Assembly: GCA_964535955.1 (NCBI GenBank)
Contig: CAZHVK010000002.1
Location: 8,122 to 72,121 of the forward strand
Length of the DNA stretch: 64,000 bases
From: an uncultured Methanosarcinales archaeon
Lineage (GTDB): Archaea > Nanobdellota > Nanobdellia > Woesearchaeales > CAXGTL01
Reading direction: 5' to 3'
The number at the start of each line of letters is the position of its first letter. Within the stretch, counting starts at the first letter, position 1. The position numbers and the translations under genes were made by a program. Under the pieces are notes generated by a model that had not been told where the DNA came from, did no database searches, and saw nothing but the letters and a program-made list of their open reading frames with translations. Of the stretch, positions 39,193-40,425 are shown piece by piece.

Positions 39193-39270
39193 GCTCTTTT
39201 ATATTACATTTTATATCACTTCAAACATAGTTTCAACTATTAAATTATGATTTTCTTGTTTATCACTGGC

Positions 39271-39322
39271 CACAATTTGAGCAAAGCTCAAATGTGCATT
39301 TTAGTCTCTGACTAAAATTGCA
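39271..39322. repeat. Tandem hairpin pair upstream of the LAGLIDADG gene
   Basis: ATTTGAGC-AAA-GCTCAAAT and TTTTAGTC-TCT-GACTAAAA. Confidence 0.7.
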
Positions 39323-39389
39323 TCCGTAAGATATATAAACTAAAAAATTAATTATATAGTATTAAGATAATAAAATTTGATGATATAAA

Positions 39390-40127
39390 ATGACTAATAA
39401 TGTAAATATAAAATTAAGTTCAAAAGATAAAATTAAAGGTTTAAAACTACCCAACAATATTTCTAAAGAATTAGCCTATTTATGTGGTGTTCTGATAGGA
39501 GACGGAAGTTTATACATAAGAAAGAAAAAATATGATTATATTATCAAATGTGTTGGTAATCCAAAAAATGAAAAAGAATATTATCATAGAATAATTGCTC
39601 CTTATTTTAAAAAAGTTTTTGGTTTATTACCAGCAATAAAGTTACATGACTCAAATACTACTTTTGGATTTACAATTCATTCTAAATCTTTACTTAAATA
39701 CTTTGAAAAAATAGGATTTTCTATTGGAAAAAAAGACGAAAATTTAGACATTCCTCATTCAATTAAAGAAAATAAAAACCTTTTAATTCCATTTATAAGA
39801 GGGTTATTTGACACTGATGGTTGCATTTGTTTTAAAAAAAAGTATAAGCTTAAACCTTATTATCCAGTCATAAGTGTTTCTTCACAAAGTAAAAAATTAA
39901 TCAAAGAAGTATCAAAAATACTCAAAGAATTAGGATTTAAAATTGTAGAAACATATGATTACAAAGTTAAAGATAAAAGAAATGAAAAAGGATTTACAAT
40001 AATAAACAGAATAGAATTAAATGGTAAAGATAATCTTAGGAAATGGATGTCTACAATTAATTTTTACAGTCCAAAACATTTAGAGAAGATAAAAATTTGG
40101 GAAGAAAATAGCGGGGAGAGGATTTGA
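39390..40127 (+). CDS. Free-standing two-motif LAGLIDADG homing endonuclease
   Basis: LAYLCGVLIGDGSL and FIRGLFDTDGC motifs; no intein Hint ends; 3' end overlaps the tRNA-iMet antisense. Confidence 0.9.
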   Translation: MTNNVNIKLSSKDKIKGLKLPNNISKELAYLCGVLIGDGSLYIRKKKYDYIIKCVGNPKNEKEYYHRIIAPYFKKVFGLLPAIKLHDSNTTFGFTIHSKSLLKYFEKIGFSIGKKDENLDIPHSIKENKNLLIPFIRGLFDTDGCICFKKKYKLKPYYPVISVSSQSKKLIKEVSKILKELGFKIVETYDYKVKDKRNEKGFTIINRIELNGKDNLRKWMSTINFYSPKHLEKIKIWEENSGERI

Positions 40128-40207
40128 ATTCGGCAACAGCTTCCCTCTGTTTCCTCCGACCTGAGGGTTATGAGCCCTCCGGGCACTCCTGACTGCCCTA
40201 CCCCGCT
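40109..40207 (-). tRNA. Initiator tRNA-Met(CAT) with a 24-nt intron at 53/54 (40129-40152)
   Basis: A1:U72 acceptor AGCGGGG/CCCCGCT; GAGGG-CTCATAA-CCCTC with three G-C pairs; hairpin insert AACAG/CTGTT in relaxed BHB. Confidence 0.93.
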
Positions 40208-40307
40208 ATAACCAGGATTCTATATATCAAGAAACCAACCCCATTTATAAATATTACCCAATATATCAGAAATCTTTAAAAACACAAACCAATTCTATTA
40301 ATAACAT

Positions 40308-40425
40308 GTCGAGGTGGCACAATCTGGTACTGCGCCAGCCTGCTATTGCAAGGCTGACAGCTGGTTTCCTTCGGGATTTCGGGGTTCAAATTGATTACAA
40401 TATCATGAAAGTCCCCGCCTCGACG
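40308..40425 (+). tRNA. tRNA-Ser(GCT) with two introns (37/38 40346-40358; 59/60 40391-40411)
   Basis: Acceptor GTCGAGG/CCTCGAC; CCAGC-CTGCTA..A-GCTGG; long variable arm; TTCA/TGAA BHB. Confidence 0.9.

What the first reader, a model, noticed from the sequence alone, without database searches (positions are those of the whole stretch)
39271..40207. Free-standing LAGLIDADG endonuclease whose ORF runs into the T-arm of an intron-bearing tRNA-iMet
Seen: the last codons (AGC GGG GAG AGG ATT TGA) are the antisense of the tRNA acceptor and T arm, and the stop lies 1 nt from the 53/54 intron boundary. Two hairpins precede the gene. Inference: a homing-endonuclease cassette inserted at the tRNA 3' end that could cut intron-less T-arm alleles and co-drive intron spread (collaborative homing), which might explain the T-arm intron bias.
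Basis: partly seen in the sequence, partly recalled or inferred. Interest (0 to 1): 0.65.

Follow-up and report, generated by a model that had tools for sequence, protein, structure and literature searches.

The report
Endonuclease gene welded to initiator-tRNA gene
A selfish DNA-cutting enzyme gene sits tail-to-tail against the initiator tRNA gene of a tiny Woesearchaeota archaeon, and in about 80 other archaeal DNA pieces its relatives hold the same spot almost only where that tRNA gene is split by a small intron in one short zone, which suggests how unusual tRNA introns are kept and spread.

Summary
ORF 39390-40127 (+) encodes an intact 245-aa I-DmoI-like LAGLIDADG endonuclease. Its last 19 nt are the antisense of the 3' end of an initiator tRNA gene (40207-40109, minus strand), which carries a 24-nt protein-spliced intron at 53/54. 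This is not chance. The only paralog in the genome runs into tRNA-Lys(CUU) in the same way. I found 78 distinct loci where a homolog lies directly 3' of an initiator tRNA gene, 64 convergent and 14 tandem. In 77 of them the tRNA has an intron between 40/41 and 53/54, while other positions are filled in only 22-36%. Across 401 genomes of the order, none of 134 initiator genes without such an intron has the endonuclease gene beside it, against 7 of 15 with one (p = 2e-8). One genome keeps a decayed remnant of the endonuclease gene. Six loci keep a displaced old copy of the tRNA's 3' part beyond the endonuclease gene. The best reading is a homing cassette that enters through a break in the variable-loop/T-arm region, with the intron protecting its carrier and travelling with it. 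Cleavage is untested. The tRNA-Lys family does not need an intron. The genome's many other T-arm introns are not explained.

The parts
39222..39263 (+). Conserved upstream element of the cassette (CATAGTTTCAACTATTAAATTATGATTTTC...). It forms an imperfect inverted repeat with sequence between the TATA box and the ATG.
   Evidence: The same element lies upstream of the CACTGG motif in L002, L017, L026, L027 and L045. There is a 22-nt match to the upstream region of the own C6 paralog.
39264..39272 (+). CACTGGCCA, a variant of the conserved cassette promoter/operator motif CACTGGACA.
   Evidence: The motif is present in 47 of 106 upstream regions of homologs. It usually lies 7-12 nt before the TATA box and about 52 nt before the ATG, and is often tandem. 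G000 has 20 copies against 4.7 expected.
39273..39324 (+). Roughly 50-nt insertion made of two hairpins (39274-39293 and 39296-39321). It separates the motif from the TATA box.
   Evidence: It folds at -19.9 kcal/mol and is unique in the genome. Same-genus genome G002 has the uninterrupted sequence CACTGGCCATCCGTAAGATATATAAAG.
39331..39339 (+). TATA box (ATATATAAA) of the endonuclease gene.
   Evidence: Its position and sequence are shared with G002 and with the cassette consensus.
39390..40127 (+). Free-standing single-chain LAGLIDADG homing endonuclease gene (245 aa). Motif 1 is LIGDGS with D38 and motif 2 is LFDTDGC with D143.
   Evidence: Pfam match. In 55 orthologs G37 D38 G39 and D141 T142 D143 are invariant. 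AlphaFold2 gives pLDDT 93.7 and pTM 0.91. Foldseek finds I-Tsp061I, I-DmoI, PI-PfuI and the TliVMA intein endonuclease. Both motifs align to those of PI-PfuI.
40109..40128 (-). 3' exon of tRNA-iMet (positions 54-73). Bases 40109-40127 also encode the last residues and the stop codon of the endonuclease on the other strand.
40129..40152 (-). 24-nt bulge-helix-bulge-type intron between tRNA positions 53 and 54.
   Evidence: Among 53 distinct homologous introns the helix 47-50: intron -2..-5 and the inner helix i2-i6: -7..-11 are kept through compensatory changes, with the bulge G52 G53|A1.
40153..40207 (-). 5' exon of tRNA-iMet (positions 1-53).
40243..40252 (-). TATA-like box (TTTATAAAT) 36-45 nt upstream of the tRNA 5' end.
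   Evidence: Read from the sequence. The same type of box precedes the iMet genes of relatives.

Best explanation
The ORF is an intact, free-standing, I-DmoI-like LAGLIDADG homing endonuclease gene. It belongs to a lineage specialised on the single-copy initiator tRNA gene of Woesearchaeales. What is shown: the cassette (conserved CACTGGACA motif, TATA box, ORF) always lies directly 3' of the initiator tRNA gene. It is usually convergent and flush with the tRNA end, so the ORF borrows its last codons and its stop from the antisense tRNA. What is inferred: the enzyme recognises about 20 bp of the uninterrupted gene around the variable loop and T-stem (roughly positions 38-58) and cuts there. 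The break is repaired from a cassette-bearing copy. The left homology arm is the tRNA's 5' part, so the repair tract copies, in order, the intron, the 3' part of the tRNA and the endonuclease gene. A short splicing-endonuclease intron anywhere between about 41 and 54 splits the recognition site. It therefore protects the carrier and spreads together with the nuclease gene, which is collaborative homing. When the far flank is not homologous, the resident 3' part of the tRNA is pushed beyond the cassette and left as a relic. The nuclease gene later decays while the harmless intron stays. The copy in this window has no relic, and its tRNA is inverted relative to same-genus genomes. A 50-nt hairpin insertion lies inside its promoter, so it may be an older, possibly less expressed, resident.
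For: (1) Fold and active site. The AlphaFold2 model has pLDDT 93.7. The best structural matches are I-Tsp061I, I-DmoI, PI-PfuI and the TliVMA intein endonuclease. Both catalytic Asp residues are invariant in 55 orthologs and align to those of PI-PfuI.
(2) Site specificity. I found 78 distinct loci with a homolog directly 3' of iMet, 64 convergent and 14 tandem. Overlaps cluster at 3, 19 and 0 nt. The iMet-linked enzymes form one clade (SH-aLRT 99), and paralogs at other tRNAs fall outside it.
(3) Link to the intron. 77 of 78 have an intron at 40/41-53/54, and in 25 the 53/54 intron is the only one. The D arm, anticodon stem, anticodon loop and T loop are occupied in only 22-36%.
(4) Order-wide survey of 401 genomes. 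0 of 134 listed iMet genes without a zone intron have the endonuclease gene beside them, against 7 of 15 with one (Fisher p = 2.3e-8).
(5) The asymmetry expected of immunity. The intron occurs without the endonuclease gene in G035, G254, G125, G292, G163, G090 and G079, while the endonuclease gene almost never occurs without the intron.
(6) Life cycle. G171 keeps a remnant covering the last ~108 residues (55% identity, E = 3e-32; longest open frame 76 aa) flush with the tRNA end. Same-genus G003 has an empty site, HPF->iMet->tRNA-Ser.
(7) Intron class (53/54 versus 41-50) is intermixed among closely related enzymes. That fits 'any insertion in one site protects' and does not fit recognition of the intron sequence.
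(8) Spliced exons of cassette-bearing genes have the same consensus as intron-less genes without the cassette, so the intron is the only difference.
(9) Relics. In 6 loci a second copy of the tRNA 3' part, starting between about 43 and 57, lies 780-1060 nt past the functional 3' end, just beyond the endonuclease promoter. Two of them carry a different T-stem allele. Shuffled controls gave 0 hits.
(10) The intron is a real, structurally constrained splicing-endonuclease intron.
Against: No cleavage, target site or transfer has been shown; everything rests on comparative data. There are exceptions. L120 (tandem) has introns only at 29/30 and 37/38, with an unusual ACTGG/CCAGT T-stem. A four-locus subclade sits upstream of an initiator-like tRNA; in L155 and L158 that tRNA is intron-less and in L158 it has an altered anticodon stem-loop. 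The sister family at tRNA-Lys(CUU) sits beside tRNAs with introns in the D-loop, at 30/31 or at 37/38, or with none (L242), so an intron is not a general requirement of these cassettes. In the window the tRNA is inverted relative to G002 and G003 and no relic exists, so this copy did not arise from a G003-like site by simple homing. The survey of genes without the cassette was ascertained with a pattern that requires an intact anticodon arm and an intron of 30 nt or less. Intron-rich lineages may be over-represented among cassette carriers. Relics were found in only 6 of 64 convergent loci.
Confidence: 0.6

Rival explanations
1. The intron is linked to the cassette but does not protect against it. 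The endonuclease recognises the tRNA 3' end plus the adjoining flank, or some other site, and the insertion of its own gene destroys that site. The zone intron is a hitchhiker inherited from a founder cassette that moves together with the tRNA gene.
For: The sister family at tRNA-Lys(CUU) sits flush against tRNAs with no intron or with introns far from the endonuclease gene. Paralogs abut intron-less tRNA-Thr and tRNA-Ile (L024, L029). The cassette is always flush with a tRNA end. The 53/54 introns are homologous to each other.
Against: A mere hitchhiker should often be lost, because introns at all other positions of the same genes come and go (22-36% occupancy). Yet 77 of 78 keep one in the zone. 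Unrelated introns at 41-50 replace 53/54 among closely related enzymes. Relic 5' ends lie inside the tRNA at about 43-57, not at its 3' end.
Confidence: 0.2
2. The protein is a domesticated LAGLIDADG protein, for example a maturase-like helper for processing initiator pre-tRNA with unusual introns, or a regulator. It is kept only where its substrate intron exists.
For: LAGLIDADG maturases exist, and bI3 and I-AniI are among the structural matches. The protein occurs only with intron-bearing iMet. Orthologs are 45-70% identical and of constant length.
Against: Both catalytic Asp residues are invariant. The distribution is patchy across many families of the order: absent from same-genus G002 and G003, with an adjacent copy in only 7 of about 150 listed genomes that have a detectable iMet. 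A decayed copy and relic tRNA parts point to insertion and loss. The same introns are present, and must be spliced if the tRNA is functional, in genomes without the protein. Two unrelated intron classes are associated with it.
Confidence: 0.07
3. This particular copy is an inactive passenger. The cassette family is or was mobile, but in this genome the gene is no longer expressed or no longer homes.
For: A roughly 50-nt double-hairpin insertion separates the conserved CACTGG motif from the TATA box; the normal spacing is 7-12 nt. No relic is present. The tRNA is inverted relative to same-genus genomes.
Against: The ORF is full length with all invariant residues. The TATA box and start context are intact. 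The tree branch length is ordinary (0.37).
Confidence: 0.3
4. The overlap is a chance read-through of an unrelated ORF into a GC-rich tRNA gene, or an ORF-calling artefact.
For: GC-rich tRNA antisense has few stop codons in an AT-rich genome, so any abutting ORF would run on.
Against: Both family members of the genome, and about 100 homologs elsewhere, abut tRNA genes. The tRNA-encoded tails (NSGERI, WARRDLNPG, GFEP) recur in protein databases.
Confidence: 0.01

Closest known systems
Collaborative homing in phages: free-standing F-CphI beside the ORF-less psbA intron of cyanophage S-PM2, and T4 mobE mobilising the defunct I-TevIII intron (PMC6083498, PMC2790892, PMC3984707)
   Same: A free-standing endonuclease gene lies next to a gene whose ORF-less intron sits in or near the presumed target. 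The intron protects the carrier and is co-converted with the nuclease gene. The intron is also found without the nuclease.
   Different: Here the host is a cellular archaeon and the nuclease is LAGLIDADG, not Endo VII-like or HNH. The target is a tRNA gene. The intron is a 21-33-nt protein-spliced bulge-helix-bulge intron rather than a self-splicing group I intron. Two unrelated intron positions serve the same role. Cleavage has not been shown.
Phage T4 SegB, a free-standing GIY-YIG homing endonuclease in the tRNA gene cluster (PMC2330249)
   Same: A free-standing homing endonuclease gene lies among tRNA genes, uses tRNA gene DNA as its target and drives preferential inheritance of the neighbouring region.
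   Different: SegB is phage-encoded, belongs to a different nuclease family and involves no intron. It is not flush with or overlapping a tRNA end.
I-DmoI, I-Tsp061I and related LAGLIDADG enzymes encoded inside archaeal rRNA bulge-helix-bulge introns; intein endonucleases PI-PfuI and TliVMA
   Same: Same single-chain two-motif fold (TM to target 0.72-0.76), archaeal origin, and an association with splicing-endonuclease introns.
   Different: Those genes lie inside the intron or intein they mobilise. This one lies outside the tRNA, on the opposite strand, and the intron carries no ORF.
Intron transposition between tRNA genes in Thermoproteales and mobile-element models of tRNA gene disruption (Fujishima et al. 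2010 and Sugahara et al., cited from my own knowledge; reviewed in PMC4090602)
   Same: Both concern non-canonical tRNA introns at positions such as 29/30, 45/46, 53/54 and 59/60, and the question of how they are gained.
   Different: Those models name no enzyme that moves the DNA. A 2026 preprint on Asgard tRNA introns states that the route of arrival remains open (10.64898/2026.10.13.758758). This element offers a concrete DNA-level vehicle, at least for the initiator tRNA.

Membership tests
LAGLIDADG homing endonucleases (single-chain, two-motif) | Two LAGLIDADG helices, each ending in a catalytic acidic residue | tested here: met
   LIGD38GS and LFDTD143GC. Both Asp residues are invariant in 55 orthologs and aligned to the GDG and DAEG motifs of PI-PfuI.
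LAGLIDADG homing endonucleases (single-chain, two-motif) | Pseudo-dimeric alpha-beta-beta-alpha-beta-beta-alpha fold | tested here: met
   AlphaFold2 pLDDT 93.7, pTM 0.91. Foldseek probability 1.00 to I-Tsp061I, I-DmoI and PI-PfuI. Pfam LAGLIDADG_3 8e-13.
LAGLIDADG homing endonucleases (single-chain, two-motif) | Site-specific double-strand cleavage of a 14-40-bp target leaving 4-nt 3' overhangs | not testable with these tools
   This needs the purified protein and DNA substrates.
Mobile homing endonuclease gene (selfish element) | Same insertion site in many hosts, with a patchy distribution and empty sites | tested here: met
   78 distinct loci lie 3' of iMet. An adjacent copy occurs in only 7 of about 150 listed genomes with a detectable iMet. 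Same-genus G003 has an empty site.
Mobile homing endonuclease gene (selfish element) | Degenerate copies and insertion scars (gain, decay, loss cycle) | tested here: met
   G171 remnant. Displaced tRNA 3' parts beyond the cassette in 6 loci, against 0 in shuffled controls.
Collaborative homing (free-standing nuclease plus ORF-less intron) | The nuclease gene is never found with an uninterrupted target allele, while the intron is found without the nuclease | tested here: met
   77/78. 0/134 versus 7/15, p = 2.3e-8. Seven intron-bearing genomes have no nuclease gene and an eighth (G171) keeps only a remnant. Exceptions are L120, L155 and L158.
Collaborative homing (free-standing nuclease plus ORF-less intron) | The intron interrupts the nuclease recognition site, so the intron-containing allele resists cleavage | not testable with these tools
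   Inferred from the zone of obligatory introns (40/41-53/54) and from the relic boundaries (about 43-57).
Archaeal bulge-helix-bulge (splicing-endonuclease) tRNA intron | A central 4-bp helix flanked by 3-nt bulges that hold the splice sites, supported by covariation | tested here: met
   Helix 47/48-50/51: intron -2/-3..-5/-6 is paired in 51-53 of 53 sequences, with GC/AT and GC/CG/TA/AT exchanges. The bulge is G52 G53|A1. The inner helix has 4-7 pair types per position. No outer helix is present, so the motif is relaxed. One EndA catalytic-domain gene is present in the genome.
Integrative element using a tRNA gene as attachment site | An integrase gene and direct repeats of the tRNA 3' end flanking a multi-gene element | tested here: not met
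   The cassette is a single gene of about 0.9 kb between the HPF-like gene and the tRNA. No integrase is present. The window holds no second copy of the tRNA 3' end.

The most novel reading that the evidence does not exclude
The cassette is a natural cleave-and-replace element. A LAGLIDADG nuclease is welded to a cleavage-resistant, intron-split back part of the essential single-copy initiator tRNA gene. It enters through a break in the variable-loop/T-stem region and displaces the resident back part. Such cassettes, together with sister lineages at other tRNAs, would be a general DNA-level vehicle that seeds and maintains non-canonical bulge-helix-bulge introns in archaeal tRNA genes. That would answer the open question of how these introns arrive.
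Probability: 0.35. Interest if true: 0.9.

Novelty: new variant of a known kind. Interest (0 to 1): 0.74.

Why it matters
How archaeal tRNA genes acquire and keep introns at non-canonical positions is unresolved. [quoted passage not shown] This finding supplies a concrete, testable candidate: an identifiable enzyme, a defined 20-bp target region in a universally conserved gene, and natural alleles (intron-less, 53/54 intron, 41-50 intron, stem variants) whose cleavage behaviour the model predicts. If it holds, it extends collaborative homing from phage group I introns to protein-spliced introns of cellular archaea. It would also show that selfish nucleases can select for gene fragmentation of an essential tRNA. 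These small, well-folded nucleases with tRNA-gene targets could be of interest as specificity scaffolds. In my four searches of the held paper library I found no description of this arrangement. Earlier unchecked notes of this scan report the same pairing in other genomes.

Tried and rejected
- ARAGORN and Rfam, at gathering and at E-value thresholds, do not call the tRNA and miss most tRNAs of the genome. I therefore built an intron-aware PSSM aligner and a general reference-based aligner. The general one recovered only 21 tRNAs of G000, so the genome-wide intron map is incomplete.
- A precise filled-versus-empty comparison within GTDB family f16 (G018 versus G146) failed. The intergenic DNA is too diverged. 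Only the iMet...RNase HII neighbourhood is shared.
- The apparent remnant in G035 (TTTTCTTC after the tRNA) is only the oligo-T trailer.
- tblastn hits in the other loci without the endonuclease gene are matches to tRNA-encoded C-terminal tails, not gene remnants.
- The hairpins 39273-39324 are not a repeated element of the genome. I found no evidence that they are a terminator of the upstream gene or part of the mobile unit.
- Intron class does not follow the enzyme tree, so the idea of separate enzyme lineages for 53/54 and for 41-50 was dropped.
- The family is absent from viral contigs (one weak hit), so a viral vehicle is not supported.
- The careful tree search did not finish. The tree cited is the quick IQ-TREE run.
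Full report
**The observation**

The window comes from a 1.49-Mb, 29-30% GC, 31-contig genome (window = contig C2 8122-72121). Source names of protein homologs place it in Woesearchaeota. ORF 39390-40127 (+) encodes 245 aa and matches Pfam LAGLIDADG_3 (8e-13).

The minus strand 40207-40109 reads AGCGGGGTAGGGCAGTCAGGAGTGCCCGGAGGGCTCATAACCCTCAGGTCGGAGG / AAACAGAGGGAAGCTGTTGCCGAA / TTCAAATCCTCTCCCCGCTA. This is an initiator tRNA: it has the A1:U72 pair, the G29-31:C39-41 pairs and a CAU anticodon. A 24-nt insert lies between positions 53 and 54. ARAGORN and Rfam do not call the gene. An intron-aware profile built from 25 intron-less initiator genes of relatives aligns it at 118 of 132 bits with one intron at 53/54. 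ARAGORN accepts the spliced product as tRNA-Met(cat).

The ORF's last 19 nt (40109-40127) are the antisense of positions 73-55. The stop codon is the antisense of 55-57, and one base (T54, 40128) separates it from the intron (40129-40152). The two hairpins (39274-39293, 39296-39321) are real.

**More than chance**

The genome has one paralog (33% identity, contig C6). Its ORF reads about 60 nt into the antisense of a tRNA-Lys(CUU) gene, and its stop is the antisense of the anticodon loop. Rfam scores that tRNA at 51 bits.

Among 61 relatives, nearly every free-standing homolog has a tRNA gene touching its stop codon. The closest ones (59%; G018, G045) sit against an initiator tRNA with the same 53/54 intron. 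More distant ones abut tRNA-Thr, Ile, Asn, Gly, Ser, Pro and others. Some of those are intron-less, and some have the ORF upstream on the same strand.

The protein databases carry the footprint too. Many orthologs end in NSGERI (antisense iMet). The paralog's family ends in WARRDLNPG, GIRTQDL or GFEP (antisense tRNA 3' ends). Four sampled contexts of that second family are all antisense tRNA-Lys(CUU).

**The initiator-tRNA lineage**

I combined loci from relatives, three named Woesearchaeota genomes, 80 metagenome contigs and 21 further genomes of the order. This gave 87 loci, 78 of them distinct, in which a homolog (40-70% identity) lies directly 3' of an initiator tRNA gene.
- 64 are convergent, as here. 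Overlap with the tRNA clusters at 3 nt (20 loci), 19 nt (14 loci) and 0 nt (7 loci).
- 14 are tandem, with the tRNA 3' end 94-152 nt before the ATG.

These enzymes form one clade (SH-aLRT 99 in the quick tree), and paralogs at other tRNAs fall outside it. The tandem arrangement is mostly one subclade.

The protein is a credible nuclease. G37 D38 G39 and D141 T142 D143 are invariant in 55 orthologs. The AlphaFold2 model has pLDDT 93.7 and pTM 0.91. It matches I-Tsp061I, I-DmoI, PI-PfuI and the TliVMA intein endonuclease. Both motifs align to those of PI-PfuI.

**The link to the intron**

In 77 of the 78 distinct loci the initiator tRNA has an intron between 40/41 and 53/54. 46 have one at 52-54 and 34 have one at 40/41-49/50, with a few having both. 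In 25 loci the 53/54 intron is the only intron. The D arm, anticodon stem, anticodon loop and T loop are occupied in only 22-36% of the same genes.

I then surveyed 401 genomes of the order using a pattern that finds initiator genes with an intact anticodon arm. Among the roughly 150 listed rows:
- 134 have no insert between position 41 and the T loop, and none of these has the endonuclease gene beside it.
- 16 have an insert. Of these, 7 have the gene adjacent (G000, G018, G045, G288, G377, G240, G357), 8 do not, and one sits at a contig end.

Fisher's exact test gives p = 2.3e-8. The asymmetry is what immunity predicts: the nuclease gene almost never occurs without the intron, while the intron often occurs without the nuclease gene.

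One of the eight, G171, keeps a remnant covering the last ~108 residues of the gene (55% identity, E = 3e-32; longest open frame 76 aa), flush with the tRNA end. The spliced exons of cassette-bearing genes have the same consensus over positions 29-73 as intron-less genes without the cassette. So the DNA difference in the zone is the intron itself. Intron class is intermixed among closely related enzymes (19 changes each on the tree). That argues against recognition of a particular intron and for disruption of one exon site.

**The intron is a real splicing-endonuclease intron**

I compared 53 distinct 53/54 introns (21-33 nt).
- Exon positions 47-50 pair with intron positions -2 to -5 in 51-53 of 53 sequences. 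Compensatory exchanges occur: G:C to A:U at position 49, and G:C, C:G, U:A and A:U at position 50.
- Intron positions 2-6 pair with -7 to -11 in 50-53 of 53 sequences, with 4-7 pair types per position.
- G52 G53|A1 forms the 3-nt bulge holding the 5' splice site, and the 3' site lies two bases after the central helix.
- Partners shifted by one base fail.

This is bulge-helix-bulge geometry without the outer helix. The genome encodes one EndA catalytic-domain gene.

**Scars of insertion**

The window has none. Six convergent loci elsewhere do: L097/G377 20 of 20 bases, L177/G220 19, L178/G240 19, L105 18, L181/G317 17 and L018/G045 17. Each carries a second copy of the tRNA's 3' part on the tRNA strand, 780-1060 nt past the functional 3' end. 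That is just beyond the endonuclease promoter. Shuffled probes gave no hit in 78 loci.

The copies begin between about position 43 (L018) and 57. In L178 and L018 they carry a different T-stem allele from the functional gene. The simplest reading is this. The cassette arrived with its own intron and 3' part, entered through a break inside the variable-loop/T-arm region, and pushed the resident 3' part downstream. This step is inferred.

**The local history**

Three genomes of the same genus share the flanks (RNase HIII-like gene, HPF-like gene, tRNA-Ser).
- G003 has HPF -> iMet(+) -> Ser with no endonuclease gene. Its iMet has three introns, none in the zone.
- G002 has a different 212-aa LAGLIDADG-like ORF on the 5' side of an iMet. 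That iMet has five introns but nearly identical exons.
- G000 has the endonuclease gene and an inverted iMet with one intron.

So turnover at this locus is fast, and the present arrangement is not a simple homing product of a G003-like site. G139 has two different cassettes in tandem after its iMet.

**The 5' end of the cassette**

A motif CACTGGACA, often tandem, lies 7-12 nt before the TATA box and about 52 nt before the ATG in 47 of 106 upstream regions. It is present in the iMet lineage and in paralogs. In the window it is CACTGGCCA (39264-39272). The two hairpins are a roughly 50-nt insertion between it and the TATA box. G002 has the uninterrupted sequence. The insertion may affect expression.

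In G000 the extended module also precedes a cytosine-methyltransferase-like ORF, an integrase-like ORF and a KilA-N-like ORF. There are 20 motif copies against 4.7 expected.

**Limits and exceptions**

- Nothing shows cleavage.
- L120 has no zone intron, though it has an unusual T-stem.
- A four-locus subclade lies upstream of an initiator-like tRNA. In L155 and L158 that tRNA is intron-less, and in L158 the anticodon stem-loop is altered.
- The tRNA-Lys family tolerates intron-less neighbours.
- The survey of genes without the cassette is pattern-ascertained.
- In G000 at least 10 other tRNAs have T-arm introns, mostly near 59/60, with no endonuclease gene beside them.

**Comparison with what is known**

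The enzyme is a member of the single-chain LAGLIDADG family (fold and motifs tested; activity not testable here). The system works like collaborative homing of phages (F-CphI with the psbA intron; mobE with I-TevIII) and like T4 SegB in using tRNA gene DNA. It differs in host, nuclease family, intron type and the welded, overlapping architecture. In four searches of the held paper library I found no description of free-standing LAGLIDADG genes flush with archaeal tRNA genes, nor of an association with bulge-helix-bulge introns. A 2026 preprint calls the route of tRNA intron arrival open. Earlier AI notes of this scan report the same pairing in other genomes. They are leads, and my analysis reproduces their central claim independently.

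**Verdict**

This is a new variant of a known kind. I put confidence at about 0.9 that this is a tRNA-iMet-specific homing-endonuclease cassette, and at about 0.6 for the intron-immunity and co-conversion mechanism.

Noticed in passing
G000 genome-wide; window 39264-39272; contig C6 4592 and 4676; C7 1483-1567; C25 5051-5134; C4 146264; C20 5439; C3 135968; C2 111254: A conserved promoter/operator module (TCxCAGTGGTCACTGGACATGTGCGTGTGA followed by a TATA box, often preceded about 84 nt upstream by a CACTGGACA...TGTCCAGTG inverted repeat) precedes the endonuclease paralog. It also precedes a cytosine-methyltransferase-like ORF, an integrase-like ORF and a KilA-N-like ORF. There are 20 CACTGG[AC]CA copies against 4.7 expected. 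This looks like a shared control element of the mobile genes of this lineage. Its binding factor is unknown.
   Followed up: partly
window 39273-39324: The two hairpins are a roughly 50-nt insertion between the CACTGGCCA motif and the TATA box. The insertion is absent from the same sequence in same-genus genome G002 and occurs once in G000. Its origin and its effect on expression are unknown.
   Followed up: partly
G000 contig C6 5673-5861 (minus strand): A tRNA-Ser-like gene with acceptor GCCGCAG...CTGCGGC appears to enclose a complete second tRNA-Ser (GCCGACG...CGTCGGC) within a long insert, immediately upstream of the tRNA-Lys(CUU). It is either a nested gene or tandem partial duplicates.
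   Followed up: no
L088 (G002 C6 11825-12040) and L089 (G003 C14 20429-20570) versus window 40109-40207: Within one genus the initiator tRNA has 1, 3 or 5 introns at entirely different positions. The exons of G000 and G002 are nearly identical. Intron turnover is very fast relative to exon change.
   Followed up: partly
L088 2702-3340 (G002) and L243 rc 675-1400 (G139): Other, distantly related LAGLIDADG-like ORFs (212 aa and 242 aa) with the same CACTGGCCA promoter occupy the initiator tRNA flank in other genomes. G139 has two cassettes in tandem. The locus is a hot spot for several nuclease lineages.
   Followed up: partly
L240 and L241 (metagenome and NCBI contigs): In the tRNA-Lys(CUU)-linked family, the gene on the other side of the endonuclease gene is class I lysyl-tRNA synthetase in two of four sampled contexts.
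   Followed up: no
G000 contig C7 44292-44699: A 135-aa LAGLIDADG_3 fragment lies about 0.5 kb after an intron-bearing tRNA-His. It would be a third tRNA-adjacent LAGLIDADG gene in this genome.
   Followed up: no
whole genome G000: ARAGORN finds 11 tRNA genes and Rfam finds 10-16 in a genome scored 100% complete. Most tRNA genes are hidden by one to four non-canonical introns, many of them in the T arm near 59/60.
   Followed up: partly
window 40308-40425 (+): The neighbouring tRNA-Ser(GCU) has two introns (after the anticodon loop and in the T loop). Its promoter region (CAATATATCAGAAATCTTTAAAAAC) is conserved in G002 and G003.
   Followed up: no
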